Shown one piece after another: positions 19,529 to 40,382 of a DNA stretch of 64,000 nt (the first letter of the stretch is position 1; each line of letters begins with the position of its first letter). The notes beneath the pieces were generated by a model. It saw nothing but the letters and a program-made list of their open reading frames with translations, had not been told where the DNA came from and searched no databases. The translations under genes and the position numbers were made by a program. Origin of the DNA: Escherichia coli 042. GTDB lineage: Bacteria > Pseudomonadota > Gammaproteobacteria > Enterobacterales > Enterobacteriaceae. The stretch lies in the NCBI RefSeq assembly GCF_000027125.1, contig NC_017626.1. One strand, written 5' to 3'.

Positions 19529-20008
19529 TTAGAAAATCCGTTCACTCCACAGACTGTACGCACTGGTTCCGGCGACGATGTGCTCCCAGTTGATGCTCTC
19601 ATAGGTAAATGACACAGACTCTTCCGGCTGCCCTGGGCTGTCGTTAATGGTATGGGGAACGGTAAGGCCGATGTTTGAGATCCGGGCATTAGTCAGTTTC
19701 AGCTTGTAGTACGGCTCATTAATACCAAAACGGTTGGTGCGATAGAAGACAAAATCACAGGTCAGACATTCATTCTCCGAAATGGCCTTGCCCAGAAGGG
19801 GGGAGGATTTGTCCACCGGTTTCGTGATAGTCAGTTCCTGGTGATTGACGTTCTGTGCGCGACTCAGCCCATGGGACAGTGACATCACCATGATCTGATC
19901 CTGATGTGCAATCTGGGCCTTGTTACCGATGGACGGCATTGACGAGCATCCGGATGAAATCAGTCCCTGGAGTTCTCCGTTTAGTGTCAGATAGACGGGA
20001 TTTGCCAT
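19529..20008 (-). CDS. hcp: Type VI secretion tube protein Hcp (TssD), second copy at the distal end of the main T6SS operon
   Basis: The ORF track's 288 aa form is an N-terminal over-extension. An Hcp-like 159 aa protein starts at MANPVYLTLNGELQG with an AGGAGA ribosome-binding site upstream of the ATG at 20008. Confidence 0.8.
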   Translation of the reverse strand: MANPVYLTLNGELQGLISSGCSSMPSIGNKAQIAHQDQIMVMSLSHGLSRAQNVNHQELTITKPVDKSSPLLGKAISENECLTCDFVFYRTNRFGINEPYYKLKLTNARISNIGLTVPHTINDSPGQPEESVSFTYESINWEHIVAGTSAYSLWSERIF

Positions 20009-20025
20009 TGTTATTCTCCTTAACC

Positions 20026-21384
20026 TCAATGAGTCGGATGGACAGGTTCGGTTCTGGTATCCGTTGCCATATCCTGTCCGGTATTTTTCAGCAGTAGCCA
20101 GCGGCTTAACAGCCCGTCCAGCCGTTCGTTGATCTCTTTTTCCAGCGCCTGTGTGTCCTGCTTCCGTGCGCGTGTCTCCTGGTACTGTGTCAGCAGGTAC
20201 TCCAGCGGTGTTTCCTGATTCAGTAACCGTTCGGCCTGCCAGGTCACCGTCTTGATATACGAGAGGGTGAAACCCTGTTTCTCCGTCTCCTTTTTCATCA
20301 TCAGATCCGCAAAGTCCCGCAAATTCTGCCGCGCCTGTTGCCAGCCCTTCATCTGCGGACTGGCTTGCGCCCGGTTTCTCAGCGTGTTGCTCCACATCCT
20401 GCTGGCTTCCTGCTGTTGCAGGCTTTCCGGCCAGAGGGTGTCTGCGGTGCGCATCATCTGCATTCCGGTTTCCAGCGGCTGTAGTGGCGGGGCATCCAGA
20501 AGCTGTTGCAGGTACTGTTCATATTCTTTCAGTACCGGGGAGGCCAACCAGGCGGTGGCGGCTCCCTGTGCGGTATCCCTGACTTGCGTAAGCTGCCGTT
20601 GTATCGGATACGCCTGCCACCACCAGAGTACTGCCGCGATAACGGCAGTACAGGCGGCACCGGCAACAAAACCTTTTACCGTGCTGCCCTGTCTAACGTT
20701 GTCGGCGTTATTTGCCACACCGCGCACCTCCACCCGCATTTCCGGCAGGTCGGGCAGGGGAGGCACGGCTTCCGCTGTGGTGGAAGCCGTGCTTTCCGGC
20801 GCATAGACCAGCGTCCGGACCGTGGTCTGTGCCGCCGTATCAGTACGGTTTCCGGGCTGCGGCTCAAACCGCTTGCGTGTGTTCTGCACAAAATAAAGCA
20901 GGTTTTCCACGCGCGGCTGGCGCTTCAGTTCCACCTGCTGGAGTTTGTCGCAAATAAGCTGTAAAGCCCGTTCCGTGCGGTAGAGCAACGGCAGATCATT
21001 TTCGGAAAAGGACACCTGCTGGCGCAGAATATTCCCGGTGCGGGTATTGAACCAGTCCAGCATCTCAGTCCGCGCCGGGCCACCCTGCGGCCAGAATTTA
21101 TCCCATTCGTGGGTGATCATCGCAGCCAGCAGTTCCGAGCCTTCGCAGAACCCTGCCAGCCCCTGATTACGGGTACGCGCCAGCGTATAGTAGGTGGCGG
21201 TATGCAAATCCACCCCGTTGGCCTTAAAAATCGACAGCGCCAGCGATTCCACCAGTTTCCAGTTCAGCTCCGGCTGTGACGGGTGGTTAGCTTTGTTAAT
21301 TTCTTCGCGGATGGCGCTGAACTCCGGCAGGGCGCGCGGATCGCTGCCGGTAACGATAGTTTGTGTCAGTGCGTAATTGCTCAT
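20026..21384 (-). CDS. T6SS-associated ImpA N-terminal-domain membrane protein (VasL-like)
   Basis: The 499 aa ORF-track form overlaps tssM; the start is placed at the internal Met (MSNYALTQTIVTGSDPRALPEF) preceded by an AAGGGGA ribosome-binding site. ImpA_N-like N-terminus plus one predicted transmembrane helix (AGAACTAVIAAVLWWW). Confidence 0.6.
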   Translation of the reverse strand: MSNYALTQTIVTGSDPRALPEFSAIREEINKANHPSQPELNWKLVESLALSIFKANGVDLHTATYYTLARTRNQGLAGFCEGSELLAAMITHEWDKFWPQGGPARTEMLDWFNTRTGNILRQQVSFSENDLPLLYRTERALQLICDKLQQVELKRQPRVENLLYFVQNTRKRFEPQPGNRTDTAAQTTVRTLVYAPESTASTTAEAVPPLPDLPEMRVEVRGVANNADNVRQGSTVKGFVAGAACTAVIAAVLWWWQAYPIQRQLTQVRDTAQGAATAWLASPVLKEYEQYLQQLLDAPPLQPLETGMQMMRTADTLWPESLQQQEASRMWSNTLRNRAQASPQMKGWQQARQNLRDFADLMMKKETEKQGFTLSYIKTVTWQAERLLNQETPLEYLLTQYQETRARKQDTQALEKEINERLDGLLSRWLLLKNTGQDMATDTRTEPVHPTH

Positions 21385-21394
21385 CACTATCCCC

Positions 21395-24300
21395 TTAATA
21401 CAACGTATCCGGTAAACGGAACAGGCTGAACAGACCGCCGGTGAACGGGTTATCTTCGGTATCCACATGCACCCGGTAAACCATTGCGCCGCCGTCCACG
21501 TTAAAGCGCACGTTAAAGGTGTCACTGGTCACATTGGTCAACTGGCCCGCGCCGAACAGGCGGAACTGCGCCCACGGTCCACTGAACGCGATACTGTGCG
21601 GTGCTCTGCCGCTGGTGCCAATCAGCGTCAGCTTGCTTTCATTGCCTTCACGCATGTTGTTCGGCCAGACCAGATGGGCGGTGTAGTTGCGTCCCTGGCT
21701 GTAGTCCACTAACTGGCCGTCCAGGTTAAGTACGCTGCGCCGCTTATTGCCGGAAAGCGATACGGTTTCCACGGCAAACTGTGCGCCCAGCCCGTTCTGC
21801 TGGCTGAAGAAGATGTCGCGGATTTTCTGCGCGGTATCCAGTTGCTGCCGGATATCTTCACGGATTAACACTCTGCCGTCGTCGCCAAAGGTCAGATCGT
21901 TTTCAAGGAACAGGCGCAGGTTGTTCTTGTAGAAATTGTCCAGAATGCCATCCGGTTTAAAGAAACGTTCAAACGAATCCAGTGAGGCATCCTGTGTGGC
22001 GCGCGGATTAAACGGATAGTTATCGGCAAGCTGCTCGTTGAAGGGTTTCACTACATTGTCGCGCCAGTCCACTTCCATGTAACGAACGGCTTCCACCATC
22101 ACCACATGCCAGGCCTGATCCGCGAGCTTACCTACCCAGCGGTTAAGCGGTGCAGGGAGAGTTTTTGCCATCTGGCGGGTAGCGAAGATTGGATCGCTGC
22201 TGTTTTGATCCAGACGTAGCTGTACTGCTTTCAGCGCCGATTTCCCCGGCACTGGCGAGTTCTGGATCGCCAGCAGGTAACGGTGCAGCTCGGTCAGTTG
22301 CTGGTACACGGCCTGTAGCGTACTCGCCTTGTCCTTTTGCTCCTCCAGTGCGCTGTTTTCCGGTGCGAACTCATGCCCCAGCCGGGATAACAGGCGGTAA
22401 TCCATCTCATTTATTGCCGCTTCCCTCGCCTTATCATCCAGTTTGCCGGAGAGCGTCAGCGCGTGGGTATTATCGCGCAGCGCCGTCAGCGCACGCTGGA
22501 ATGGCTGATCGCCGCTGATAATCTGCTCCAGCGCGTCGGTCAGCGCCGACATGGCCTCATAGTCACGGACGTTGAGGTTATCCATTCCGGCACGCCAGGT
22601 GGCGGTATAGTCACTGATGTACTGTTCGGTGATATGGCGCTGGATCTCTTCACGGTCGGCCTCGCTGTAGGCGACGCTTTGCGTCAGGTTCAGTACCCAC
22701 GAATCCAGCGCGGTCAGCTCAACGAGGCCCTCACGCTGTTTGACAAAATAGCTTTGCAGTCCATAGCGGGTGAGGAACTGCGGGATCACCAGTTTTTCAT
22801 CATTACCGGCGACGAACACGTTGTCGAAGGTGGGACCAACCTGGTCGCGCAAATTCAAATCGGCGGGCAACACGCTTAATGCTTTGGTGCGCAGGGTCTG
22901 GTAGACACGCTGGTATATGGGCAGCTTGCTCAGTTCCTGCTGCGCATTAATGACCGGTTTATCATAGGGGGTCCAGCGGCTGACAGCATCGCTGTCACCG
23001 CTCTGGCGCTGCGCGTGCCAGTCGGTGTGCTCCAGCGCATAGTCCAGATGCGCCATCAGTTGCGCCTGAATATCGCGCTGGCCGTGAAATTCATTGCTCC
23101 AGCGCCGCGCCATGTACTGTTTTACCGCCTCGTTGTTGCGCCCACTTTTGTCTTCCATCATGCGCAGTACGCGCAGCACGGCGAGCTTTTCTTCGCTCTC
23201 TGGCGGGGCATTGTTTAGATCCCGGATCAGGCCGTTCATTAACGAGGGGAGATAACGCTGCTCAAGAAGCTGAATGTAGGTTTGCTCCACATACGGCCCT
23301 ACGCGGACGCCCTGGTACAATCCCATATCCGCCAGAAAACCGCGATCGCGGTAATCGCCATAGGCCAGGGTGGCATCGCGTACCGGATTAAGCAACGACA
23401 GTTGCAGATTGCCGAATTCATCCGTTCCTTGCGGTGGTGGTACGTCCATAAAGGCTTTAGCCTGTGCCAGTACGTTAACGCCGGACTGCCAGTTCTGATT
23501 GTAATAATGGTGCCAGCTTCCGACCAGCAATGCCGCCAGCGCCGCGCCACAGGCGGAAAAGGCGGTCAGCCTGCGCCGGGAGCTGTTCAGCCAGACGCTG
23601 TTTTCACCCGCCAGGTTCGGCTCAGCCAGCAGGACTTCAGGGAAGAGGCGGCGAGTAAAATACGGCGTCGTCTCCACCAGAGGCCAGGTTGCCAGCGAGC
23701 TGTTACCCAGCCCGTACTGGCGGGCGGCGGACTGCGTGAAAATATCATCCACCTGGCCACGCTGTAGCGATGATGTGAGCCAGACGCCACGCAGCATTAC
23801 ATCCATGTTCTCACCGTCCAGCAATGCGGCGAGCAGTGCGGTGACGATTTCTCCTGTTCCCTGCATCTGACGGGAGAAGCTGAACACGGCGCTGCGGGGA
23901 GCAGCACCGGTTTGTGCGAGCATCAGATCCGACAGCGCCAGGTTCACCTGTTGTACCCACGTCTGCCAGAAAGCCCCCAGTTCGCTGCGCCAGTCGTCAC
24001 TTTCATGGGCGCGGCGGGTAAACGTGACGCCGAGGATCGCATCGCGGTCTTTTTTATCCAGTGAATGGAACAGCGCGGCAAAGCCGGTCAGCAGATCCAG
24101 CCGTGTCAGCACCACGTAAACGGGCAGACGGCAGTGCAGACTCTGGCGGATCTCCTGAAGTTGCTGGCGCAAATTTTGTACCAGTGTCTCACGGCGGGAT
24201 TTATCCGCCGTCAGCAGATCGGGAAGATCGAGCGTCAGGATCAGGCCGTTGAGCGGCTGGCGCGCGCGCGTTTGCATCAGCCAGCCCAGCCAGTGTTCGC

Positions 24301-24922
24301 GCAGGCGGCGGTGGAGCAGATCATCCCCGCCGGGCGAGGTCAGTACGCCGTCAACATCGAAAATCACCGCTTGGTTGCCCACTCGCGGTGTGATCAGCGG
24401 ATGGTATTCCGTACCCCGGATGCTTTCCGGCGTGTAAATAATGTCAGATGGAAAGCCCTCGCGCAGCAGAGCGCTTTTACCGCTACCCGCAGGACCAATG
24501 ACCATATACCACGGCAACTGCCACAGATAACGGCGGTTATCCAGATGGCGGCGCAGGCGCAGCAGCCAGTGATCCAGATATTGCTGCTGGCGGTGGAGTT
24601 CCACGGTCAACGGATCTTTTTCTTCCTCCCGCTGCTGTTTCTGCTGTTTTTCCAGCTTTTGCAGACGCTTCATTACCCGCCAGGTGAGCCAGATCAGAGC
24701 GATAAGCCCCCAGACGGCGGTCGCCAGCCAGCGGTTTGTTAGAGGAGCCAGCCAGTGCTGCTCATAGAGCGTCCATTTCGGACCTTGCCACCAGATCCAC
24801 ACCAGCAGAAAAATCCATGCCAGCGCCAGCAGCCAGGCGGCGGATACCCTGAATCGCGGCATCGCTGGCCTGAGAGCAGATCTCAGCGTGCTGAACAGTC
24901 GGGATGTCGGAAATCTGAACAC
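21395..24922 (-). CDS. tssM: T6SS membrane complex protein TssM (IcmF)
   Basis: 1175 aa; N-terminal transmembrane helices, Walker A GPAGSGKS, large periplasmic C-terminal domain; IcmF-family architecture. Confidence 0.9.
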   Translation of the reverse strand: MFRFPTSRLFSTLRSALRPAMPRFRVSAAWLLALAWIFLLVWIWWQGPKWTLYEQHWLAPLTNRWLATAVWGLIALIWLTWRVMKRLQKLEKQQKQQREEEKDPLTVELHRQQQYLDHWLLRLRRHLDNRRYLWQLPWYMVIGPAGSGKSALLREGFPSDIIYTPESIRGTEYHPLITPRVGNQAVIFDVDGVLTSPGGDDLLHRRLREHWLGWLMQTRARQPLNGLILTLDLPDLLTADKSRRETLVQNLRQQLQEIRQSLHCRLPVYVVLTRLDLLTGFAALFHSLDKKDRDAILGVTFTRRAHESDDWRSELGAFWQTWVQQVNLALSDLMLAQTGAAPRSAVFSFSRQMQGTGEIVTALLAALLDGENMDVMLRGVWLTSSLQRGQVDDIFTQSAARQYGLGNSSLATWPLVETTPYFTRRLFPEVLLAEPNLAGENSVWLNSSRRRLTAFSACGAALAALLVGSWHHYYNQNWQSGVNVLAQAKAFMDVPPPQGTDEFGNLQLSLLNPVRDATLAYGDYRDRGFLADMGLYQGVRVGPYVEQTYIQLLEQRYLPSLMNGLIRDLNNAPPESEEKLAVLRVLRMMEDKSGRNNEAVKQYMARRWSNEFHGQRDIQAQLMAHLDYALEHTDWHAQRQSGDSDAVSRWTPYDKPVINAQQELSKLPIYQRVYQTLRTKALSVLPADLNLRDQVGPTFDNVFVAGNDEKLVIPQFLTRYGLQSYFVKQREGLVELTALDSWVLNLTQSVAYSEADREEIQRHITEQYISDYTATWRAGMDNLNVRDYEAMSALTDALEQIISGDQPFQRALTALRDNTHALTLSGKLDDKAREAAINEMDYRLLSRLGHEFAPENSALEEQKDKASTLQAVYQQLTELHRYLLAIQNSPVPGKSALKAVQLRLDQNSSDPIFATRQMAKTLPAPLNRWVGKLADQAWHVVMVEAVRYMEVDWRDNVVKPFNEQLADNYPFNPRATQDASLDSFERFFKPDGILDNFYKNNLRLFLENDLTFGDDGRVLIREDIRQQLDTAQKIRDIFFSQQNGLGAQFAVETVSLSGNKRRSVLNLDGQLVDYSQGRNYTAHLVWPNNMREGNESKLTLIGTSGRAPHSIAFSGPWAQFRLFGAGQLTNVTSDTFNVRFNVDGGAMVYRVHVDTEDNPFTGGLFSLFRLPDTLY

Positions 24923-24941
24923 GGTAACTCCTTGTTATCTT

Positions 24942-26384
24942 TTACTGTTCTGCCGTGAATTTTTGTTCCAGTGCTTCCAGCAGGGACGGTTCCCATTCGG
25001 ACAGCATCATGTGTAATCCTGTTCTGAAGAGTATCCGGTACTGCTGTTGTGCAAGCTGAACCATACCGGCCTCTTCCAGTAACTGCGCGCCGAAAAACTG
25101 GCGGTGAAACTGGTGGCGGGGATCACCTTCGGGCAGGTTTTCCAGGTACCGCAGCGCGGCTTCCAGCCCGTTTTCATCGAAGCACGCCCTGGCCGCCTGT
25201 AATTCTTCATCGGTCTGTACAACCGGGGCGGTCTGGTTGACTGAGCCGGATGATGCCAGCCACTGTTTCGTCTGTTCGGACACAAACGGAGTGCGGTCGT
25301 TAAACAACAGGTTGATCAGTGCGGGCAGGCGGGCCAGAAAACCGGTAACTTCATCACGGATAGCATCCGCCACCTGTTTATAACCGAGGCGCAGCGCGGT
25401 CTGTGCTGAGAGGTAATGACCGTCCAGCCAGTACGGGGCCAGCAGCAGGCTTTTTTCCACCTGCTGCCACAGCGCCATGTCGGCATTGTTCAGCCGCGCC
25501 AGGTAATCATCCATCATATCGACAGGGAAGGCTGCCAGTGGGGTCCGGCCATCGCTTTCTGCCTGCGGGGTACTGGTGATGGTCTGCCACAGAGCATGGC
25601 GGCGCAGTCGGTAACCCTGCGGTGACTCCGGCTGGCGCTCACAGAGAATGGCGGCCACCTTCAGCAGGGTGTCGCGCCATGCTTTATCGTCGTGGCTGTC
25701 AACAGTGACCTGCGGGATTGGAGTGGCTGCAACAGGAGGCTGAGCGGCAACCGTGTGCGGTGACATATCCGGTACAGATCCGGCTGTGGCCTGCGGCGCA
25801 ATGGCGGCGGTTCGTGCAGATGATGGCATTTCAGGCGCTACATCACGAAACGCGCGCTGAAACAGGGCAAATAAATCGTCTGTCGCCTTAGCCAGCTCAG
25901 GAGCGTTGTGCGCCTGCCAGCACTGTGCCAGTTTTGCCAGCTCTCCCAGCAAAGCATCGCGCTGTATTGTCGCAGCATTCCCGGCAAAGTCCTGAACGGC
26001 AGACTCAAAGCGTTTTATCACCTGGGCGGCAAAGCGTTTTTTGTGGGCCATGTTCTGCGGTGCGGCGCATGTCCAGTAGTGTTCTGTATATTGTGCCAGC
26101 ATCCTGGAGGCCAGCAGAATATCACCGGCATGTTGCAGGGTACGCAGCAGGTGGGCCAGCAGGCGAAAATCTTTGGTTTCTGAGGCCAGAAGCATCAGGC
26201 CCCGGCGCTGAAGTTCCGGGATATCAAGCTGGCTGTGCGCCAGTGAACCGAGCTTGACGATTTCGCTGTCGACAAACTCCCAGTCTGCATTGCCATCATC
26301 AAGCGCGGCGGACAGCTTATCTTCCGGCAGGTTTTCCAGCAGGTGTGCAAGCCATACATCGGGATTACGTAAGTCCATTGCCAT
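24942..26384 (-). CDS. tssA: T6SS protein TssA (ImpA family)
   Basis: The ORF-track start at 26450 is an over-extension into the upstream gene; start taken at MAMDLRNPDVW, preceded by a GGGAGA ribosome-binding site. ImpA-like N-terminus. Confidence 0.8.
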   Translation of the reverse strand: MAMDLRNPDVWLAHLLENLPEDKLSAALDDGNADWEFVDSEIVKLGSLAHSQLDIPELQRRGLMLLASETKDFRLLAHLLRTLQHAGDILLASRMLAQYTEHYWTCAAPQNMAHKKRFAAQVIKRFESAVQDFAGNAATIQRDALLGELAKLAQCWQAHNAPELAKATDDLFALFQRAFRDVAPEMPSSARTAAIAPQATAGSVPDMSPHTVAAQPPVAATPIPQVTVDSHDDKAWRDTLLKVAAILCERQPESPQGYRLRRHALWQTITSTPQAESDGRTPLAAFPVDMMDDYLARLNNADMALWQQVEKSLLLAPYWLDGHYLSAQTALRLGYKQVADAIRDEVTGFLARLPALINLLFNDRTPFVSEQTKQWLASSGSVNQTAPVVQTDEELQAARACFDENGLEAALRYLENLPEGDPRHQFHRQFFGAQLLEEAGMVQLAQQQYRILFRTGLHMMLSEWEPSLLEALEQKFTAEQ

Positions 26385-26388
26385 ATTC

Positions 26389-30644: not shown

Positions 30645-30648
30645 TCAC

Positions 30649-31995: not shown

Positions 31996-31997
31996 CG

Positions 31998-32522
31998 TCA
32001 GTTTTCCTCTTTTTTCATCTCAATCGCACTGGCGCGGATATGCACCAGCAGGCGATAGTGGTGGCCGATACTTTCTACCGGCTCAATTTGTTTCCATTCT
32101 GTGGCCTGGTCGTCTGAAAAATAGGCAATGACACCGATATAACCGGTTTTCTCATCCAGCTTGATCGGCGGCAGTGTTTTTACGGTGTCCGGCAACAGGT
32201 TGAAGTCCTGGTGATCGATATAGTTCTTCCCCAGCACGTCGGGCAGCGCGGTGGTGGCAATCTGATCGTAATCGGCGGCCTGGAATTTGGAGTCGTCGCT
32301 CAGATACACCAACTGGACATCCACCGGCGCGGCTTCACCGTCCGCCGTCAGGTTGCTGTCCGGCTCGGTCAGCAGCGTGACGGTCAGCTCGGTTGACTGA
32401 TCCATCAGCTTTCCGACCTGAATATCCGGATTGCGGATCACCTGGCTGATTTTTTTCGCTGTTTCACAGCCAGTTAACACAACGCTCATCAGAACGCAGG
32501 CCAGAAACGCTTTGCCGTTCAT
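31998..32522 (-). CDS. tssJ: T6SS outer-membrane lipoprotein TssJ (SciN)
   Basis: 174 aa, lipobox LTGC, size and position typical of TssJ. Confidence 0.85.
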   Translation of the reverse strand: MNGKAFLACVLMSVVLTGCETAKKISQVIRNPDIQVGKLMDQSTELTVTLLTEPDSNLTADGEAAPVDVQLVYLSDDSKFQAADYDQIATTALPDVLGKNYIDHQDFNLLPDTVKTLPPIKLDEKTGYIGVIAYFSDDQATEWKQIEPVESIGHHYRLLVHIRASAIEMKKEEN

Positions 32523-33811: not shown

Positions 33812-33815
33812 AGAA

Positions 33816-34865
33816 TTATTCCCTGATTCGGATTGTGATGGCGGGCGGTACTTTCGGCTGACCAATAAAGCTGGTTCTGCCGAGGCGGGAGCTGGCAGGA
33901 TCGCCAAGGCGCATCCCTTTAGCCTGCTGTGGTGCTAGGCACAGCCGTAAATCCCAGGCAAACTGGTCGCGCAGAATAAAGGAAAGGAACATGGTCAGCG
34001 GCAGGTGATTTTCGCCATCGGGTAAAAATGAGAGATAACGCTCCCGCGACAGGCCGCCAATCTGCAACAGGAATTTTCCGCTGCGATCCGGCACCCGTGC
34101 GCCGAGGGTAAAATTAACGCCGAGTATGGAGCGTCCCGGAATATGTCCAGCCGTTTTTCCTTTCGGATTACGTACACCCAGCCGGTTCTGGTGTGCCGGA
34201 TCAATGGCGACTTTACGCAGTTGCCAGCGTTCAATGGTGACATCCGGCAAATCAAAACAGTGCGACACCAGATTACAGATAACCTCCGGCGCGCGGCCTG
34301 GTGTTGCCAGAATTCCGGCGTAGGCCAGCATTTTGCTGTGGTTAATGGCAAGCCTGTCACGCACGCTCTGATTACCCAGCCCGACCAGTGCGTACATGCG
34401 CTGTGAAAAGGTGTCAGTACCGCCGTTACGAAAGCAGATGTAGTAGCGGTATTTGCGCCAGGCATGATAGGCAAACTGTGTCCAGCGGTGGCTGAATAGA
34501 TCGAGAAATTCTTTCAGGCCGTCTTCGTTCTGTGCGGACTCCTGCGCCATCTGATCCAGATAATAGCCCGGTAGCGGCGACTGGCTGCCGGAAAAGCCCA
34601 GGAAACGGGTTTGCAGTACATACTGTCCGTTCTGGCTACGGGAAAGCACACTCAGGTCCGTACCCGGAAAACCGATATTGGCGTCAGAGCTGAAACGCAC
34701 GATCTCTTGGGCTGGCTCGGTACGCAGGGAAATATCCTGGCCCGGAGCGCCATACCGACGGTACAGCGCCTCCATCAGCACATAGAAATTGCAGTTGCGC
34801 ACATCCGCCGATAACGGCGGTTTTGTCGCTATATAAGGGCGTGCTGACCCATTTTCTCCTGCCAT
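33816..34865 (-). CDS. tssG: T6SS baseplate protein TssG
   Basis: 349 aa; position between tssF and tagH; TssG-like sequence. Confidence 0.85.
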   Translation of the reverse strand: MAGENGSARPYIATKPPLSADVRNCNFYVLMEALYRRYGAPGQDISLRTEPAQEIVRFSSDANIGFPGTDLSVLSRSQNGQYVLQTRFLGFSGSQSPLPGYYLDQMAQESAQNEDGLKEFLDLFSHRWTQFAYHAWRKYRYYICFRNGGTDTFSQRMYALVGLGNQSVRDRLAINHSKMLAYAGILATPGRAPEVICNLVSHCFDLPDVTIERWQLRKVAIDPAHQNRLGVRNPKGKTAGHIPGRSILGVNFTLGARVPDRSGKFLLQIGGLSRERYLSFLPDGENHLPLTMFLSFILRDQFAWDLRLCLAPQQAKGMRLGDPASSRLGRTSFIGQPKVPPAITIRIRE

Positions 34866-36688
34866 TCCCAGGCCTCCTGACTTTCCGTGTTGATGATTTT
34901 CAGACAGTGGTACGAATTGATGCTGGCGTAGAGAGCAAAAAAGTGCGAGAGCACTGTACCAAGAAGATAAATTTCACCTTCGCAGATAAATGGATCGGGA
35001 CGTATCCACAGCGTGGTCGCCAGCCCGCGAACCGGCACGCCTTTAAACAACCTGTCAACAGGTTTGGTTTCGAGTTTTTCTATGGCATCCAGTTTCTGGC
35101 GCGACAGTCTGGCCCGCTGCGGATGGTGAGCGCCTGGCAGGTCGAAGGTCCGCAGGATCTGGATCAGTGTCTCCCTGTCCAGCAGGGATAGGTAGTTCAG
35201 GTTCATCGCGGAAATCAGCGACCAGTGCATGTCGCCGTCCGTGACTGGCCAGAGCGGCTGCGTCGGGCGTGTGACATTATGAAATGAGGCCACCGCCGGG
35301 TTTTTGTTGACGGCCACGCAGATATCGCCGATATGCAGCCGAGCAGGGATCATACGGTTGGTACAGATTAATGACGTGGTGATCACATCATCATTAAACC
35401 GTGAGCTGTCCGGAATGCTGCCGTCCGCATGGACAAAGGCGATACTATGTTCAAGCCCGCGGTGAAACAGGGATGTTTTAGTCCGGTGATGCCAGTAGAC
35501 GACTTCCCGCTGGCGGCTGTACTCCATCTGGTGCTGGAAACTTTCAAATTCGGGCCAGACACGCGCCTGGCTGCCAGGGTTGGATTCAGTACCTGAAACT
35601 TTGACTTTGCTGGTGACTGTGCTTATCTGAAAAATGTCATAAGCGTCGGGATGCCGGTGGCTGGCGCGCAGCGGGTATTCCGCTATCCGCCCATCAGGCC
35701 TGACGGGTTCCGCATAATGCGTAAACAGGTTAATGGCTGGCGTACAGTGCAGACGCAGTGAGTCCCGGCGTAGCTTGATGTCGGCAGGTAACGGGCGGTT
35801 AAAGTGCAGGCGCAGCGTAAACGCGCTGGCCGGGAAATCGTCCGGTAGTGGCGCAACATCGCGCAGATGGAAAAAAAAGAAGGCTTCGGGATAGCAGAAA
35901 TACTCCTGGAGTACCCGATAGCCGCTGTGGACATTTTTCGGCCACGGCAGCAGTGCGTCCTGGTTTTCAAATCCGGCGGCCTCCAGCCACAGATCCGGCA
36001 GCGGCAGGCGGTACTCTCCGGCAATCAGTTCCGCATCCATCAGGCATTCGCAAAACCACAGATAAAGTTGGTGTCGGGTATAATCGTCTTCATTACCCAG
36101 CCAGAACGTTATTTTGTTCAGGTCAAGCATGGCGGGGGAGACATTGTTATCTGCGGTAAAACTGATATCTATGATGCCTTCTTTCAGGCTGCTGGCGTTG
36201 TGGGTGTCGAGAATGCGCAGTGGTTGCAGCCAGATATCGCGCGCCAGCGTGAAATGACAGGCTACGGAAGAAACGATTTTATCATGATTGTCAGACAGCA
36301 CCTTCTGAGCAGCCAGGGCGGACTTTTCTGAGCGGCTTCTGATCAGTTCATTACGGCAGACTTGAACAGGGACTTTTAACTGATCGGTTTTGGGTTCATA
36401 GGCAATAACCGTCATGGCCGGAACTGGGCGTAAATAGTTTGCCCACAGCATACGGATTAGCCCATGGGTGAATTCGGGGAATTCGTCCTCAAGTTTCTGA
36501 CGCAGGCTACCGGACATAAAGGCAAAGGCTTCCATCAGACGCTCCACGTCCGGATCACCCTCTTTCTCGGCCAGAAAGTGGGCCAGATGTGGTTTTTCCT
36601 GCGCCAGCAGTTTGCCAAGCTGGCGAAGATAATCCAGCTCTTCGCGGTAGTAACGTTCTTCAAAAGCCACAGAGATCACTCCACACAA
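34829..36688 (-). CDS. tssF: T6SS baseplate protein TssF
   Basis: 619 aa; N-terminal ERYYREELDYLRQLGKLLAQEKPHLA motif typical of TssF; overlaps tssE. Confidence 0.9.
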   Translation of the reverse strand: MCGVISVAFEERYYREELDYLRQLGKLLAQEKPHLAHFLAEKEGDPDVERLMEAFAFMSGSLRQKLEDEFPEFTHGLIRMLWANYLRPVPAMTVIAYEPKTDQLKVPVQVCRNELIRSRSEKSALAAQKVLSDNHDKIVSSVACHFTLARDIWLQPLRILDTHNASSLKEGIIDISFTADNNVSPAMLDLNKITFWLGNEDDYTRHQLYLWFCECLMDAELIAGEYRLPLPDLWLEAAGFENQDALLPWPKNVHSGYRVLQEYFCYPEAFFFFHLRDVAPLPDDFPASAFTLRLHFNRPLPADIKLRRDSLRLHCTPAINLFTHYAEPVRPDGRIAEYPLRASHRHPDAYDIFQISTVTSKVKVSGTESNPGSQARVWPEFESFQHQMEYSRQREVVYWHHRTKTSLFHRGLEHSIAFVHADGSIPDSSRFNDDVITTSLICTNRMIPARLHIGDICVAVNKNPAVASFHNVTRPTQPLWPVTDGDMHWSLISAMNLNYLSLLDRETLIQILRTFDLPGAHHPQRARLSRQKLDAIEKLETKPVDRLFKGVPVRGLATTLWIRPDPFICEGEIYLLGTVLSHFFALYASINSYHCLKIINTESQEAWEWQEKMGQHALI

Positions 36689-37101
36689 TAGCGTTGATGA
36701 TTGTCCAGCAAAATGTCAAATTCAAACACTCCCCTGGTTTCGCTGACATCGACCGTAGCCACAATATGAAAACGTAGTTCCACAGGGGCGTATTCATCCG
36801 GTGCCGCAGCCGTAACAACAACATCGGTAATACGAGGTTCGTAATGTAAAATGCACTGGCTAATGGACTTACGGATTTCTCGTCTGAAATCGCTGGAGGC
36901 CAGCGATTCATCATTTAAATCAGTAATCCCCAGCTCTGGTGAGCCATAACAACTGCCGGAGCGGGTATTCAGGACCTGTCGCAGGTTACGTCTGATGGAA
37001 CGTATCAGTGCTTCTTTTGTATTCTGGTATGAAGGCGGGTTGGCCGCCTCACGAATACGTTCAAAAAGACTGCTGGTTGGCCCTGAATCCCGTCTTTGCA
37101 T
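36676..37101 (-). CDS. tssE: T6SS baseplate protein TssE (gp25-like)
   Basis: 141 aa gp25/GPW-like protein. Confidence 0.88.
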   Translation of the reverse strand: MQRRDSGPTSSLFERIREAANPPSYQNTKEALIRSIRRNLRQVLNTRSGSCYGSPELGITDLNDESLASSDFRREIRKSISQCILHYEPRITDVVVTAAAPDEYAPVELRFHIVATVDVSETRGVFEFDILLDNHQRYCVE

Positions 37102-37105
37102 CTGA

Positions 37106-38590
37106 TTATTCCTTATCCAGTCGTCCGACCAGACTCAGGTCGAAACTGGCACCCATGTATTTAAAATGCGGTCTGACAGAAATCGCGACCTGGTACCAGC
37201 CTGGCTCACCATCCACATCAAGTACCTCGATCTTCGCCTGACGTAATGGTCGGTGGCTGCGGACTTCGGCAGGCGGATTCTCCTGGTCGGCCACATACTG
37301 GCGAATCCAGGTGTTCAGCTCACGCTCCAGGTCACTGCGTTCTTTCCATGAGCCAAGCTGTTCGCGCTGAATTACCTTGATGTAATGCGCTAACCTACTG
37401 ATTACAAATAAGTATGGCAGCTGAGTGCCGAGTTTATAGTTGGTCTCCGCAGCCTTGCCTTCGGGGGTTTTGGGGAATTTTTTGGGTTTCTGCACCGAGT
37501 TGGCCGAGAAAAAGCACGCATTATCAGATCCTTTACGCATGGTCAGTGTGATAAAGCCTTCTTCCGCCAGCTCATACTCTCTCCGGTCAGTGATCAACAC
37601 TTCAGTCGGAATTTTTGCCTGCATTTGCCCCATGGATTCATACAGATGCACCGGGAGGTCTTTGACTGCGCCGCCGCTGGAAGGGCCAATGATATTGGGA
37701 CACCAGCGATATTTAGCAAAACTTTCAGCCAGGTTCGCAGCTAGTAAAAACGAGGTGTTCCCCCACAAATAAGACTCGTGACTCTGGCTGACGTCTTCAT
37801 GGTAACGGAAGGTCCTGGCTGGGTTCTCATCTGGCGAGTAAGGGTGACGCAGCAGGAACCGGGGGGCAGTCAGTCCCAGGTAGCGTGAATCTTCAGATTC
37901 ACGCAAGGCACGCCAGCGGGAATAGGCCGGGCCTTCAAAGATTGCTCCTGGTTCTTTGATCCCTGGTAACTCTGTCCATGAGTCCAGACCGAAAAATTCG
38001 GATGATACTGATGAGAGGAACGGGCTGTGCGCCATCGCACTGACCTGGCTGATATATTTCAGCAACTTCATATCCGGCGTGGTGTTCTTAAAGGCAAAGT
38101 TGCCGATTACCGCCGCCACTGGCTCACCGCCAAATTGTCCGTAACCGCTTGAATATACATGCTTGTAATACGCAGACTGCGTGATTTCAGGTGCAAATTC
38201 GAAATCATCCAGCAGTTCTTCCTGAGTGACATTCAGGAAATGGACCTTGATGTTTTCCCGTGTATCCGCGCGTTCAACCAGCAGCTTCAGCGAGCGCAGC
38301 AGGGATTCCAGTTCCTGAAACTCCGGGGCATGAATAATGGCATCCATCTGCCTGCTGGTTCGGGCATCAATATCAGCAATCATGGCGTCAACGGCCAGGA
38401 TATTGATAGGTTCAGCGCTACTGTCGCCCTGTAACATGGCGGCAATAAAGGCGCTCACGCCCTGGCGGGTGATATCGTAGCTTTCTGATTTAGGCTGGAC
38501 GCGGGTTTGCGCCATGATTTCATCAAGCAGAGATGGGGGCGCGGCGGTTTGCGACGCGCTGACGGGAGCAATATCTTCCTTTACTGACAT
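37106..38590 (-). CDS. tssC: T6SS contractile sheath large subunit TssC (VipB)
   Basis: 494 aa VipB-family sequence immediately downstream of tssB. Confidence 0.93.
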   Translation of the reverse strand: MSVKEDIAPVSASQTAAPPSLLDEIMAQTRVQPKSESYDITRQGVSAFIAAMLQGDSSAEPINILAVDAMIADIDARTSRQMDAIIHAPEFQELESLLRSLKLLVERADTRENIKVHFLNVTQEELLDDFEFAPEITQSAYYKHVYSSGYGQFGGEPVAAVIGNFAFKNTTPDMKLLKYISQVSAMAHSPFLSSVSSEFFGLDSWTELPGIKEPGAIFEGPAYSRWRALRESEDSRYLGLTAPRFLLRHPYSPDENPARTFRYHEDVSQSHESYLWGNTSFLLAANLAESFAKYRWCPNIIGPSSGGAVKDLPVHLYESMGQMQAKIPTEVLITDRREYELAEEGFITLTMRKGSDNACFFSANSVQKPKKFPKTPEGKAAETNYKLGTQLPYLFVISRLAHYIKVIQREQLGSWKERSDLERELNTWIRQYVADQENPPAEVRSHRPLRQAKIEVLDVDGEPGWYQVAISVRPHFKYMGASFDLSLVGRLDKE

Positions 38591-38612
38591 ACTGAAAATC
38601 CTTCTGTGAAAA

Positions 38613-39116
38613 TTATTTCTGAGCGGCGATACCCAGTTCTTGGATCAGCTGCTCGCGGCTGTCTTCGTTTTCCAGTAGCGCCTGAAGTTGTGCGCGGAAG
38701 GCCGGAATATTGCCTAGTGGAGACTTAAGTGCGACCAGAGCTTCACGCAATTCGAGCAGACGTTTTATTTCTGGTACCTGGCTGGCAATATGGTCCGGAG
38801 AAAGGTCATCCATAGATTTGACTTTCAGGTTGACGTACATTTGCTCATTGGGAGCGTCACTGAGTTCAGCCGGAACAACAAACTCCCGTTCAATGTCAGC
38901 TTCTGAAATGACTGCGTTGAGGTTATAGCGGTTGATAGCAATGGCAGTTCGCTCGTCCAACGGCGTGTTATCTGGTTTCCCTTTCAGATTGCCGGTGATC
39001 AATAAATTCAGCGGCAATTCGATATCAGCAGCCACCCCATCAACTTTTGGTGTATACCGAACGCTGATTCTTTCTTTCGGCGCGACACTGCCGCCATTGT
39101 TGTTCATTTTGCTCAT
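38613..39116 (-). CDS. tssB: T6SS contractile sheath small subunit TssB (VipA)
   Basis: 167 aa VipA-family sequence; first gene of the minus-strand operon. Confidence 0.93.
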   Translation of the reverse strand: MSKMNNNGGSVAPKERISVRYTPKVDGVAADIELPLNLLITGNLKGKPDNTPLDERTAIAINRYNLNAVISEADIEREFVVPAELSDAPNEQMYVNLKVKSMDDLSPDHIASQVPEIKRLLELREALVALKSPLGNIPAFRAQLQALLENEDSREQLIQELGIAAQK

Positions 39117-39818
39117 AAAAATGTTCCCGTTCAGGCCATGAGCACAGCATTTTCGTACTGCATAAAAATACCGAAGATACCGTTTCAGTGGCAGTTAGAT
39201 AATGTAACCTTCCTTCTGTTGTGATCGGTATTCTACTCATGAAATAAAATATTAAAAGAACTATTTATATTTTAGAAAGAGATGTATTCTTCCTTGCTAA
39301 TATATTATAGTGAAATAAATTTTGGTATTTATAGACTTGATGAATATGATTTTACGGTCAATAAAATGCCATAATATATTGATTTATATGTATTTATTAA
39401 ATTTATTAATAAGTTTTATGTATGGTTTTATCAATTGATTAATTGCTGGCAATACATCATAAGGAATTCCTTTAAGGAATGTCTTAATTGCGTGCTGGAA
39501 CGATGGCTGAGTAAGTGTCGTAATAATTTGTTTTTGACGCGGCTGTGGATTTTTATGGGGGGAAGGATACGTTATGGATAATTCTGCTGTTGAAGTTGAT
39601 ATATTTTTAGCTTATGTGACCGTGTTCTGAAATTGACTAAAAATATATTTAAACACCATAAAAGAGTTTTTCAGTAGGTGCTAATTACGTGTGCCTGTAA
39701 CTCGAATAAAGAAAAGGGTGTGGTTCCTGATGTGAGCCGCATCACACTCTAACCCGTCGGGGATTAACGACGGGTTGTTCGTAAAACAGCAGTTGATAAT
39801 TTCACAAGGAGTTCATAA

Positions 39819-40337
39819 ATGCCAACCCCATGTTACATTTCAATTACAGGTCAGACCCAGGGGAACATCACTGCCGGTGCTTTCACCGCAGATTCTGTCG
39901 GCAATATCTACGTGCAGGGACACGAAGATGAAATGCTGGTGCAGGAGTTTCTGCATAACGTTACTGTTCCAACCGATCCACAGTCTGGTCAACCTTCCGG
40001 GCAGCGCGCGCACAAACCGTTCATTTTCACCGTGGCGCTGAACAAAGCCGTTCCGCTGCTGTACAACGCGCTGGCCTCCGGTGAAATGCTGCCGAAAGTG
40101 GAGCTGCACTGGTGGCGTACTTCAGTTGAAGGCAAGCAGGAGCACTACTTCACCACACGTCTTACTGACGCGACGATTGTGGACATGAACCTGCACATGC
40201 CGCACTGCCAGGACCCTGCACAGCGTGAGTTTACGCAATTGCTCGCAGTATCACTGGCATACCGTAAGGTTGAGTGGGAGCACATCAAATCCGGTACTTC
40301 TGGTGCCGATGACTGGCGTGCACCGCTGGAAGCATAA
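39819..40337 (+). CDS. hcp: Type VI secretion tube protein Hcp (TssD), first gene of the divergent operon
   Basis: 172 aa starting MPTPCYISITGQTQGNITAGAF, recognised as Hcp1-family; AAGGAG ribosome-binding site upstream. Confidence 0.93.
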   Translation: MPTPCYISITGQTQGNITAGAFTADSVGNIYVQGHEDEMLVQEFLHNVTVPTDPQSGQPSGQRAHKPFIFTVALNKAVPLLYNALASGEMLPKVELHWWRTSVEGKQEHYFTTRLTDATIVDMNLHMPHCQDPAQREFTQLLAVSLAYRKVEWEHIKSGTSGADDWRAPLEA

Positions 40338-40346
40338 ATCTGAGTC

Positions 40347-40382
40347 AACAACATCCTGCCTTCGTGCAGGATGTTGTTTTTG
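40347..40382 (+). terminator. Rho-independent terminator/attenuator between hcp and vgrG
   Basis: Long perfect hairpin CAACAACATCCTGC..GCAGGATGTTGTTG followed by a T-run. Confidence 0.8.

What the first reader, a model, noticed from the sequence alone, without database searches (positions are those of the whole stretch)
19529..40382. Two divergent hcp genes with different contexts; strong hairpin between hcp and vgrG
One Hcp (172 aa) heads the hcp-vgrG-adaptor-cargo operon and is followed by a long perfect hairpin plus T-run, a likely attenuator that sets high Hcp to low VgrG stoichiometry. A second, clearly different Hcp (159 aa) closes the minus-strand structural operon. The two paralogs may build distinct tubes or carry different cargo.
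Basis: seen in the sequence. Interest (0 to 1): 0.35.

Follow-up and report, generated by a model that had tools for sequence, protein, structure and literature searches.

The report
Hcp hairpin followed by RfaH loading site

Summary
Two intact hcp genes (159 aa, 19529-20008 minus; 172 aa, 39819-40337 plus; 30% identical) sit in E. coli T6SS-2 at tRNA-Asp. A perfect 13-bp hairpin with a T-run (40347-40383) starts 10 nt after the hcp stop.

The two genes are the published paralogues Hcp2A and Hcp2B. Deletions, secretion, regulation and co-transcription of hcp2B with vgrG2 are already in the literature.

The hairpin is real and under selection. In 23 enterobacterial loci, 8 of its 11 core pairs show compensatory changes, and the T-run is always kept. 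A second covarying hairpin lies in the hcp2B 5' UTR.

A 100-nt block inside it is far more conserved than neutral sites. Its core, GGCGGTAGCGTA (40453-40464), is the ops site that loads RfaH. The same 12-mer is RfaH-bound by ChIP in CFT073, upstream of a 97%-identical vgrG. The same order, hcp then hairpin then ops, occurs in T6SS-1, where ops is experimentally required.

Best reading: a leaky terminator or decay barrier makes abundant hcp2B mRNA, and RfaH then licenses the read-through into vgrG and its AT-rich cargo. The block looks like a relic of a vgrG 5' end. This is ordinary biology with a modest new twist.

The parts
18001..18074 (+). tRNA-Asp (aspV), the chromosomal boundary of the T6SS-2 island
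   Evidence: Rfam tRNA hit of 67.7 bits; annotated as tRNA-Asp in strain 118UI.
19412..19451 (-). AT-rich stem-loop 78 nt downstream of hcp2A, followed by CUGCUGUUUUAU. It may mark the operon end but is not a canonical intrinsic terminator.
   Evidence: The fold gives an 11+4 bp stem, but z is only -1.3 for the 141-nt context. Terminator d-score is -62.5.
19529..20008 (-). hcp2A (159 aa), last gene of the tssB-to-hcp2A structural operon
   Evidence: It lacks the L2,3 loop extension, as reported for Hcp2A in PMC5874247.
20026..39116 (-). T6SS-2 core operon, in order of transcription: tssB, tssC, tssE, tssF, tssG, tagH, tssJ, tssK, tssL, tssH, vasI, tssA, tssM, vasL
   Evidence: PGAP annotation of the identical record; Pfam matches for vasL and tssB.
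39117..39750 (.). AT-rich divergent control region between tssB and hcp2B (37.7% GC)
   Evidence: Composition profile. H-NS repression and a CpxR site in the hcp2B promoter are published.
39751..39776 (+). Conserved stem-loop in the hcp2B 5' UTR (AACCCGTCG / CGACGGGTT), ending 42 nt before the ATG
   Evidence: On 19 loci, 87.1% of cells are paired against 32-48% in slid controls, and 7 of 9 pairs show compensatory changes.
39819..40337 (+). hcp2B (172 aa), the canonical tube-type Hcp
   Evidence: Pfam 113 bits. E 9.6e-86 to PDB 5MXN/5OJQ Hcp. 81-100% identical in 80 loci across Gammaproteobacteria. The identical protein heads the vgrG-DUF2169-PAAR (XmtU-type) operon in another ExPEC strain.
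40347..40383 (+). Terminator-like hairpin (13-bp perfect stem, 6-nt loop) plus U-tract
   Evidence: dG -20.3 and z -5.1. The 11-bp core is 97.6% paired, with 8 of 11 pairs compensatory. At least 5 T in the first 8 nt after the core stem, and d-score above 0, in 23 of 23 loci.
40399..40505 (+). Conserved non-coding block that contains ops. It is a probable relic of a vgrG 5' end.
   Evidence: Mean pairwise identity is 78%, against 50% at hcp four-fold sites and 44-47% in the flanking spacer. Similarity to the vgrG 5' end is shown. There is no conserved ORF and no covariation-supported RNA fold.
40453..40464 (+). ops element GGCGGTAGCGTA (RfaH loading and pause site, with a G12-to-A variant)
   Evidence: The exact consensus 12-mer sits at the same place in 18 of the loci scanned. 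The identical 12-mer is listed as RfaH-bound in CFT073 (Hustmyer 2022, Data set S2A).
40558..42516 (+). vgrG2 (652 aa), an intact ORF
   Evidence: Pfam Phage_GPD, Phage_base_V and Gp5_trimer_C. 97% identical with no gaps to CFT073 c1883.
42516..43355 (+). DUF4123 adaptor/chaperone
   Evidence: PF13503, 90 bits; annotation.
43377..44948 (+). 523-aa putative cargo (effector), AT-rich, with no Pfam family
   Evidence: 74% identical to CFT073 c1885, which lies in the RfaH-bound island. GC is 39-40%.
45063..46025 (+). 320-aa hypothetical protein; putative immunity partner by position only
   Evidence: Annotation; no Pfam family.

Best explanation
The region is the E. coli T6SS-2 island. Hcp2B (172 aa) is the tube subunit that drives firing. 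Hcp2A (159 aa) is an accessory paralogue at the end of the structural operon.

The hcp2B message is bracketed by two conserved stem-loops. The 3' one, with its U-tract, acts as a leaky intrinsic terminator, and at the same time as a 3' decay barrier. Most transcripts therefore end there as a short, stable, abundant hcp2B mRNA.

Polymerases that read through enter a 220-nt untranslated spacer. 74 nt past the stem they pause at an ops site, where RfaH replaces NusG. RfaH-modified complexes then resist Rho and H-NS and help ribosome loading across vgrG2, the DUF4123 adaptor and the AT-rich cargo genes. The tube-to-spike/cargo ratio would thus be set in two steps: termination or stability at the hairpin, then RfaH licensing of what gets through.

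Shown here: the sequences, their conservation and covariation, and the ops identity.
Shown by others: co-transcription of hcp2B with vgrG2; RfaH binding to the identical 12-mer in CFT073; the requirement for ops after hcp in T6SS-1.
Inferred: termination efficiency and RfaH action at this particular locus.
For: - Hairpin: z = -5.1. The 11-bp core is 97.6% paired, with 8 of 11 pairs compensatory, against 35-61% paired in slid controls.
- U-tract: conserved in 23 of 23 loci, all with a positive terminator d-score. The window's score of 16.6 is in the lower half of the range, which fits a leaky terminator.
- Generality: 79 of 80 Hcp2B-type loci have a hairpin within 120 nt of the stop.
- 5' UTR hairpin: 7 of 9 pairs compensatory.
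- No sigma-70-like promoter on the plus strand between the hairpin and vgrG.
- RT-PCR shows hcp2B through xmtV is one operon. Deleting cpxR lowers hcp2B, vgrG and xmtU together.
- ops lies at 40453-40464 on the coding strand. It is the only intergenic GGTAGNNT in the island.
- The exact consensus 12-mer lies 115-133 nt after the hcp stop in 18 of the loci scanned, always alongside the homologous hairpin.
- The block is 78% conserved against 50% at neutral sites.
- The identical 12-mer is RfaH-bound in CFT073, upstream of a 97%-identical vgrG.
- In EAEC, ops1 between hcp and clpV is needed for downstream transcription. The CFT073 hcp-tssH spacer shows the same hairpin-then-ops order.
- The cargo genes are 39-40% GC against 55-60% for the core.
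Against: - No transcript 3' ends or termination efficiencies are available for this locus.
- In Y. pseudotuberculosis, mutating the stem-loop after hcp4 lowered hcp4 mRNA but did not raise downstream transcripts. A pure stabiliser role is therefore possible.
- The ops here has A at position 12 instead of G, which may weaken the pause.
- In CFT073, RfaH occupancy at the T6SS sites was seen only in the hns stpA double mutant.
- The loci in alignment A2 were chosen because they share the hairpin, which inflates the percentage paired, though not the count of compensatory changes.
- The d-score formula was recalled from memory.
Confidence: 0.6

Rival explanations
1. The hairpin is mainly a 3' mRNA-protective stem-loop. 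The hcp2B-vgrG2 transcript is made full-length, then cut in the spacer. The two stem-loops flanking hcp2B shield a short hcp2B RNA from exonucleases while the distal part decays. Stoichiometry would then be set by differential decay, not by termination.
For: Direct precedent exists in Y. pseudotuberculosis T6SS4. Stem-loops flank hcp4, a fragment of about 500 nt accumulates, and mutating the 3' stem lowers only hcp4 mRNA. Here both a 5' and a 3' stem-loop covary. In high-GC relatives, half of the post-hcp hairpins lack a T-run.
Against: In the enterobacterial group the U-tract directly after the stem is kept in 23 of 23 loci, while the next bases diverge to about 47% identity. A decay barrier has no need for a U-tract. 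The two roles are not exclusive.
Confidence: 0.22
2. The hairpin is an efficient terminator that ends an hcp2B monocistron. vgrG2 and the cargo genes are then transcribed from their own promoter in the spacer, with ops in a classical 5' leader as in waaQ, hly or kps.
For: ops normally lies in 5' leaders. The CFT073 orphan PAAR-vgrG island has the same ops in a leader with no hcp upstream. The block is retained where the next gene is not vgrG. The start of the block weakly resembles the 5' end of the waaQ leader RNA RirA.
Against: The simple scan finds no sigma-70-like promoter in 40338-40557. The stretch between the T-run and the block is poorly conserved, at 47%. RT-PCR spans the hcp2B-vgrG2 junction. 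vgrG and xmtU follow CpxR control of the hcp2B promoter. EAEC ops1 also works mid-operon, directly after hcp.
Confidence: 0.13
3. The two Hcp paralogues build distinct tubes or carry different cargo within one machine.
For: The paralogues are 30% identical and differ at the L2,3 loop. They are regulated differently in serum and by CpxR. In published phenotypes, Hcp2B is needed for XmtU delivery, deleting the 519-bp hcp lowers competition, and the 483-bp hcp acts in host-cell assays.
Against: No Hcp2A-dependent cargo is known. Hcp2A lacks the loop that Ma et al. found essential for secretion of Hcp1 and Hcp2B, so it may not form a tube alone. Nothing in the sequence tests this.
Confidence: 0.3
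4. The hairpin is a chance palindrome or a REP-like repeat with no role.
For: The E24377A-type arm contains GCCGGATGC, which resembles a REP core.
Against: Shuffles give z = -5.1. Covariation is seen across about 12 genera. The position is fixed 8-25 nt after the hcp stop. Rfam finds no repeat family there.
Confidence: 0.02

Closest known systems
Hcp2A / Hcp2B of APEC and ExPEC T6SS2 (Ma et al. 2018, PMC5874247; Peng et al. 2016, PMC4882540; Hcp1/Hcp2 of NMEC RS218)
   Same: Same island and gene order. The short Hcp closes the vipA-to-hcp2A operon, and a 519-bp hcp heads hcp2B-vgrG2. The L2,3 loop is present only in Hcp2B. The identical Hcp2B protein heads the DUF2169/PAAR (XmtU-type) operon in another ExPEC strain.
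   Different: In this strain the module after vgrG2 is DUF4123 plus a 523-aa cargo, not DUF2169 plus XmtU/XmtV. The parts of these papers read here do not mention the hairpin or the ops site.
ops1 in the hcp-clpV spacer of EAEC Sci-1 / T6SS-1 (Taillefer, Desjardins and Cascales 2025, bioRxiv 10.1101/2025.02.08.637259)
   Same: A consensus ops sits directly after hcp and mid-operon, and is needed for downstream transcription. In the CFT073 homologue I find the same order: hairpin plus T-run, then ops about 95 nt later. That spacer shares GGCGGTAGCGTGCCTGAACGC with the T6SS-2 block of strain E24377A.
   Different: Here the downstream gene is vgrG, not clpV. The ops has A at position 12. The preprint does not mention a hairpin or terminator before ops. 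It names EDL933 as carrying ops but does not describe the hcp2B-vgrG2 spacer.
RfaH-bound orphan PAAR-vgrG-DUF4123 island c1882-c1889 of UPEC CFT073 (Hustmyer et al. 2022, PMC9765446)
   Same: The identical 12-mer GGCGGTAGCGTA. VgrG is 97% identical and the cargo 74% identical. The locus is H-NS-bound.
   Different: That island has its own promoter and a JUMPStart-like leader, with no hcp or hairpin upstream. RfaH binding was seen only without H-NS and StpA.
Stem-loops flanking hcp4 in Y. pseudotuberculosis T6SS4 (PMC12503267)
   Same: A stem-loop lies directly after hcp and a second one before it, and hcp mRNA far exceeds the downstream genes.
   Different: There the loop was shown not to terminate transcription. 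Here a conserved U-tract follows the stem and an ops site follows that. The Hcp family and operon order also differ.
Intrinsic terminators and intercistronic stem-loops that set unequal expression within operons (for example pap, puf; general knowledge)
   Same: A stable hairpin after the highly expressed structural gene, with partial expression of the distal genes.
   Different: I did not find the pairing with an RfaH loading site immediately downstream described in the papers I read.

Membership tests
Hcp / TssD tube protein (PF05638) | Full-length match to the T6SS_HCP profile above the gathering score | tested here: met
   The 159-aa protein scores 85.3 bits over profile positions 1-129. 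The 172-aa protein scores 113 bits over positions 3-129. The cut-off is 23.5.
Hcp / TssD tube protein (PF05638) | Encoded within or next to a T6SS core cluster | tested here: met
   Both genes flank the tssB-to-vasL cluster.
Hcp / TssD tube protein (PF05638) | Forms hexameric rings that stack into the tube and is secreted | not testable with these tools
   Hcp2B matches the solved tube Hcp 5MXN at E 9.6e-86. Hcp2A's best match has E 5e-22. Secretion and antibody data exist only in the literature.
E. coli T6SS-2 island at aspV | Inserted next to tRNA-Asp; tssB and hcp transcribed divergently; a second hcp after vasL | tested here: met
   tRNA-Asp at 18001-18074. The gene order is identical to strain 118UI. 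Both ends are found at 80% coverage or more in about 580 of 5426 complete E. coli genomes.
Intrinsic (Rho-independent) terminator | Stable G+C-containing stem of 5-14 bp with a short loop | tested here: met
   13 bp with 6 G-C pairs and a 6-nt loop; dG -20.3.
Intrinsic (Rho-independent) terminator | U-tract directly 3' of the stem | tested here: met
   TTTTTGTA follows the 11-bp core. At least 5 T in the first 8 nt in 23 of 23 homologous loci.
Intrinsic (Rho-independent) terminator | Structure rather than sequence is conserved | tested here: met
   8 of 11 core pairs show compensatory changes, and 97.6% of cells are paired.
Intrinsic (Rho-independent) terminator | RNA 3' ends form at the U-tract, in vitro or in vivo | not testable with these tools
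   No transcript data. The Yersinia analogue did not terminate.
RfaH ops element | 12-nt consensus GGCGGTAGnnTG | tested here: inconclusive
   The window has GGCGGTAGCGTA, 11 of 12 with G12 changed to A. The core GGTAGNNT is intact. The consensus 12-mer is present in 18 related loci. The A12 variant is listed as RfaH-bound in CFT073.
RfaH ops element | Lies on the non-template strand, in the direction of transcription | tested here: met
   Plus strand, the same as hcp2B and vgrG. Always on the plus strand in related loci.
RfaH ops element | Lies in an untranslated stretch, not in a translated ORF | tested here: met
   It lies in the 220-nt spacer. No ORF is conserved across it: Buttiauxella lacks the ATG or is frameshifted.
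RfaH ops element | Precedes a long, horizontally acquired, H-NS-prone operon | tested here: met
   It precedes vgrG, the adaptor and the cargo genes. The cargo region is 39-40% GC. H-NS repression of the hcp2B cluster is published.
RfaH ops element | RfaH binds there and downstream expression depends on rfaH | not testable with these tools
   Indirect only: CFT073 ChIP at the identical 12-mer, and EAEC ops1 genetics.
mRNA-protective flanking stem-loops (Yersinia hcp4 type) | Stem-loops on both sides of hcp | tested here: met
   The 5' loop is at 39751-39776 and the 3' loop at 40347-40378. Both covary.
mRNA-protective flanking stem-loops (Yersinia hcp4 type) | Endonucleolytic processing yields a short, stable hcp RNA | not testable with these tools
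   This needs a northern blot or a half-life measurement.
Rfam RNA families | Any curated family matching the spacer or the 5' UTR | tested here: not met
   No hit at the gathering threshold. Only chance-level hits in E-value mode.

The most novel reading that the evidence does not exclude
hcp, then hairpin, then ops is a conserved three-part junction of enterobacterial T6SS loci, present in both T6SS-1 and T6SS-2. A terminator or decay barrier fixes the amount of tube mRNA, and an RfaH loading site placed just after it makes spike and cargo expression a separately licensed step.

In T6SS-2, the roughly 100-nt ops-bearing leader is an exapted relic of a vgrG 5' end. The ops aligns with the vgrG codons for Phe-Ala-Val-Val. 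Its remaining conserved sequence may carry a further, undescribed cis function. The G12-to-A change in the ExPEC lineage would tune cargo expression down.
Probability: 0.3. Interest if true: 0.55.

Novelty: new member of a known kind. Interest (0 to 1): 0.4.

Why it matters
A T6SS needs hundreds of Hcp subunits per shot, but only one VgrG trimer with its cargo. How that ratio is set is known for very few systems. Here the junction that would set it can be read from the sequence: a conserved terminator-like hairpin, followed by an RfaH loading site.

This gives precise bases to mutate, namely the stem, the U-tract, ops G5/T6 and ops position 12. It also links T6SS-2 cargo expression to the RfaH and H-NS counter-silencing circuit already shown for T6SS-1 and for orphan vgrG islands.

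It also explains why very different vgrG-effector modules can be swapped in behind the same hcp and still be expressed. The two-Hcp part of the finding adds nothing new.

Tried and rejected
- **Small ORF in the spacer** (38 aa, 40423-40541, with an SD-like AAGGAG upstream). Rejected: the frame is not kept in E24377A, Buttiauxella brennerae lacks the ATG, and Buttiauxella A111 has a 2-nt deletion and an early stop. The 45-aa hypothetical protein annotated in strain E94 starts inside the hairpin and is not conserved.
- **Structured RNA for the 100-nt block.** RNAalifold gives only -11.7 kcal/mol, a covariation term of -0.26, and 1 compensatory pair out of 16. The reverse strand is worse. Not supported.
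- **Rfam.** Nothing at the gathering threshold, and only chance-level hits in E-value mode.
- **Sigma-54 or sigma-70 promoter inside the block.** Inspection by eye and the consensus scan found none.
- **REP element.** Only a 9-nt resemblance in one variant, so rejected.
- **Gene conversion between the block and its own vgrG.** Same-locus identity is 0.580 against 0.582 for other loci, permutation p = 0.67. Rejected.
- **hcp2A downstream stem-loop as an intrinsic terminator.** The d-score is -62.5 and there is no proper U-tract. Not supported.
- **ops in the leader of the structural operon.** None found.
- **Wrong guess.** CFT073 1.735-1.785 Mb was the wrong region. The supplement of Hustmyer et al. 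gave the right coordinates. One search failed because the range was one base too long.
- **Built-in terminator scan.** It misses this hairpin, so I scored it by script.


Full report
**1. Observation**

The window is identical to E. coli 118UI (NZ_CP032515.1; window coordinate + 222000). The finding spans the T6SS-2 island inserted at tRNA-Asp (18001-18074).

- The 159-aa Hcp (19529-20008, minus) follows vasL and is the last gene of a 19.6-kb operon that starts at tssB (39116).
- The 172-aa Hcp (39819-40337, plus) is transcribed divergently from tssB. It is followed by vgrG (40558-42516), a DUF4123 adaptor, a 523-aa protein with no Pfam family, and a 320-aa protein.
- Both Hcps are full-length PF05638 matches. 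They are 30% identical, E 1e-25, with a 9-residue gap in the short one.
- The hairpin has a perfect 13-bp stem (40347-40359 / 40366-40378) and a 6-nt loop. Its dG is -20.3 kcal/mol and z is -5.1, and none of 200 shuffles fold as well. It starts 10 nt after the stop codon and runs into TTTTTGT.

**2. The two Hcps are already known**

Ma et al. 2018 describe exactly this layout in APEC and ExPEC T6SS2. hcp2A closes the vipA-to-hcp2A operon, and hcp2B heads hcp2B-vgrG2-adaptor-effector. Their main findings:
- RT-PCR shows one hcp2B operon.
- H-NS represses the cluster.
- Hcp2B and VgrG2 are required for delivery of the effector XmtU.
- Hcp2A lacks the extended L2,3 loop that is essential for secretion of Hcp1 and Hcp2B.

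The gap in my alignment falls at that loop. An ExPEC genome with the identical 172-aa protein carries the DUF2169 plus PAAR-like module of that paper, which settles the naming.

Other papers add to this:
- Yi et al. 2019 show that CpxR binds the hcp2B promoter, and that hcp2B, vgrG and xmtU fall together in a cpxR mutant, while vipA, clpV and hcp2A barely change.
- Peng et al. 2016 deleted a 483-bp and a 519-bp hcp from the same kind of cluster. The 519-bp gene carries most of the antibacterial activity.

Hcp2B is the canonical tube type. It matches the solved tube Hcp 5MXN at E 9.6e-86. It is 81-100% identical in 80 loci from Enterobacterales, Halomonadaceae, Vibrionaceae and Aeromonas. Hcp2A is much further from every solved Hcp.

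**3. The hairpin is under selection**

I fetched 80 loci that encode Hcp2B-type proteins. In 79 of them, a perfect stem of at least 6 bp lies within 120 nt of the stop. In most, the strongest hairpin starts 8-25 nt after the stop, whether or not vgrG follows.

In a subgroup from about 12 enterobacterial genera the hairpin is homologous (ACAGCATCC...GGATGCTGT plus TTTTTGT). On 23 such loci:
- the 11-bp core is 97.6% paired, against 35-61% when the partner column is slid;
- 8 of 11 pairs show changes on both sides;
- every locus keeps at least 5 T in the first 8 nt after the core stem;
- every locus has a positive terminator d-score. The window scores 16.6, in the lower half of the range. I recalled the formula from d'Aubenton Carafa et al. 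1990, so treat the score as approximate.

These loci were picked because they share the hairpin. That inflates the percentage paired, but not the count of compensatory changes.

A second stem-loop lies in the hcp2B 5' UTR (39751-39776) and also covaries: 87% paired, with 7 of 9 pairs compensatory. So the hcp2B message is bracketed by two conserved stem-loops.

**4.

The 220-nt spacer is not neutral. Between the hairpin and vgrG lies a block of about 100 nt (40399-40505). Its mean pairwise identity is 78%. By comparison, hcp four-fold degenerate sites are 50% identical, and the spacer on either side is 47% and 44%.

The block is not an ORF. It has no covariation-supported RNA fold and matches no Rfam family.

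Its invariant core is GGCGGTAGCGTG, the ops element that recruits the NusG paralogue RfaH.
- The window has GGCGGTAGCGTA (40453-40464, coding strand), which is 11 of 12.
- The exact consensus sits 115-133 nt after the hcp stop in 18 of the loci scanned. It is always on the coding strand and always accompanies the homologous hairpin.
- Loci with short hcp-vgrG spacers, and non-enterobacterial loci, have none.
- It is the only intergenic GGTAGNNT in the whole island. The structural operon has no ops in its leader.

**5. Experimental anchors from the literature**

- **Hustmyer et al. 2022.** RfaH ChIP-seq in UPEC CFT073 lacking H-NS and StpA found two T6SS loci. One, upstream of c1882, is listed with the ops sequence GGCGGTAGCGTA, the same variant as in the window. 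That island encodes PAAR, a VgrG 97% identical to the window's over all 652 residues, a DUF4123 protein, and a cargo 74% identical. This also shows that the window's vgrG, flagged as a pseudogene in the 118UI annotation, is a full-length ORF of the same length as an annotated intact gene.
- **Taillefer, Desjardins and Cascales 2025.** An rfaH frameshift arose when EAEC lost T6SS activity in experimental evolution. A consensus ops1 in the hcp-clpV spacer of Sci-1 (T6SS-1) is needed for transcription of everything downstream, but not upstream. They note ops in T6SS clusters of several enterobacteria, including EDL933. Their text does not mention a hairpin or terminator.
- **My own reading of CFT073.** In the homologous CFT073 hcp-tssH spacer, a 9-bp G+C-rich hairpin plus TTTTTGTTG starts 10 nt after the hcp stop. 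GGCGGTAGCGTGCCTGAA follows about 95 nt later.

The order hcp, hairpin with U-tract, ops is therefore shared by T6SS-1 and T6SS-2.

**6. Mechanism (best reading, confidence about 0.6)**

The hcp2B promoter is repressed by H-NS and activated by CpxR. It drives a transcript that mostly ends at the hairpin, or is trimmed back to it. This gives a short hcp2B mRNA protected at both ends.

The fraction that reads through loses its ribosome at the hcp2B stop and faces a long untranslated gap, followed by AT-rich cargo genes (39-40% GC, against 55-60% in the core). That situation favours Rho and H-NS. The ops pause loads RfaH, which excludes NusG, suppresses pausing and Rho termination, and helps ribosome recruitment. 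These RfaH properties are established knowledge and are summarised.

RfaH cannot act on the upstream hairpin, so the two elements act in series.

Further support:
- No sigma-70-like promoter is found in the spacer.
- RT-PCR spans the junction.
- vgrG and xmtU are co-regulated with hcp2B by CpxR.

Not shown: the termination efficiency, and RfaH dependence at this locus.

**7. Rivals**

- (a) **The hairpin is mainly a decay barrier.** In Yersinia T6SS4, mutating the stem after hcp4 lowered only hcp4 mRNA, and the authors propose endonucleolytic processing between two flanking stem-loops. The conserved U-tract here argues for real termination, but both roles can coexist.
- (b) **The hairpin terminates fully and vgrG has its own promoter.** This fits the classical leader position of ops and the orphan CFT073 island. 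It conflicts with the RT-PCR and CpxR data and with the lack of a promoter match.
- (c) **Distinct tubes or cargo for the two Hcps.** This remains open. Published phenotypes differ, but no Hcp2A cargo is known.

**8. Origin of the block**

A profile of the block also hits the first 60 nt or so of the adjacent vgrG coding sequence in 8 loci. Each hit starts 1-4 nt from the ATG and is on the same strand.
- Local alignments of each block to its own vgrG 5' end beat shuffles in 13 of 16 loci, with p of 0.023 or less and z up to 7.6.
- Global alignments give 73-83% identity over 83-96 aligned bases, with frame-breaking indels.
- In the joint alignment, the block starts at a former start codon (xTGTCA against ATGTCA). 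The ops aligns with the vgrG codons for Phe-Ala-Val-Val (TTTGCGGTGGTG).
- There is no sign of ongoing gene conversion: same-locus and other-locus identity are equal, p = 0.67.
- The blocks are more alike (81%) than the vgrG 5' ends are to each other (71%).

The simplest reading is an old vgrG 5' stub that was kept because it became the RfaH-loading leader. The rest of the block's conservation is still unexplained.

**9. Verdict**

The two-Hcp story is already published. The hairpin is a genuine conserved element of a known kind. The interesting part is its pairing with an ops site, which ties T6SS-2 spike and cargo expression to RfaH. RfaH control of T6SS is itself recently known, so this is a new member of a known kind. 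The shared hairpin-then-ops layout and the vgrG-relic origin are modest new points. Interest is 0.4.

Noticed in passing
window 40399-40505: The ops-bearing conserved block resembles the first 60-100 nt of the adjacent vgrG coding sequence, with frame-breaking indels. The ops aligns with the vgrG codons F-A-V-V. It looks like an ancient vgrG 5' stub reused as an RfaH-loading leader. The conservation outside the 12-nt ops is unexplained.
   Followed up: partly
window 39751-39776: Stem-loop in the hcp2B 5' UTR with strong covariation (7 of 9 pairs compensatory in 19 loci). A second possible hairpin lies just upstream (about 39722-39748, GTGTG...CACAC). No transcription start site is known, so it is unclear whether the stem-loop sits at the very 5' end of the mRNA.
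   Followed up: partly
window 40558-42516: vgrG is flagged as a pseudogene (missing C-terminus) in the RefSeq annotation of the identical strain 118UI. It is nevertheless an uninterrupted 652-aa ORF, 97% identical with no gaps to the CFT073 VgrG that is annotated as intact. In many other strains with 100%-identical flanks, this vgrG is split by ISEc31 or IS5.
   Followed up: partly
L003 (E. coli E94, NZ_CP119740.1) 2369-3108: A truncated vasL abuts a truncated hcp2B-type gene. The roughly 19-kb T6SS core has been deleted, while hcp2A, the hairpin, the ops block, vgrG and an Rhs gene remain. This is a natural loss of the T6SS machine that keeps the cargo arm.
   Followed up: no
L020, L022, L031 (Lelliottia, Citrobacter werkmanii), about 3517-5700: hcp2B-type gene, hairpin and ops block are followed not by vgrG but by unrelated ORFs. 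In L031 these are a 321-aa protein and a 204-aa hydrophobic protein. They may be Hcp-linked effector/immunity modules under the same RfaH leader.
   Followed up: no
window 46335-49153: An ISAs1-family transposase gene is interrupted by a group II intron. Rfam hits group-II-D1D4-2 at 47334-47451 and Intron_gpII at 49078-49153, and the ltrA reverse transcriptase/maturase lies at 47826-49076. This sits immediately downstream of the cargo genes.
   Followed up: no
window 4620-9852: A complete rRNA operon (16S, two tRNAs, 23S, 5S, then a tRNA) lies about 8 kb upstream of the island. StyR-44 is matched in the spacer just before the 23S gene.
   Followed up: no
window 56846-60591: Five matches to naRNA4 (REP/BIME-derived nucleoid-associated RNA), three of them in tandem at 60312-60591.
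   Followed up: no
window 13266-13277: The only exact match to GGCGGTAGNNTG in the window (GGCGGTAGGCTG, plus strand) lies far from the island. I did not check whether it is coding. ops-like sites inside coding regions are reported not to bind RfaH.
   Followed up: no
L085 (E. coli K-12) 2167-2239: The waaQ leader sRNA RirA carries the JUMPStart/ops sequence. Its 5' end (GTCAAAGTAAGTGCGTTA) weakly resembles the start of the T6SS-2 block (GTCAGTAAGGAGTTAC). This is possibly coincidence.
   Followed up: no
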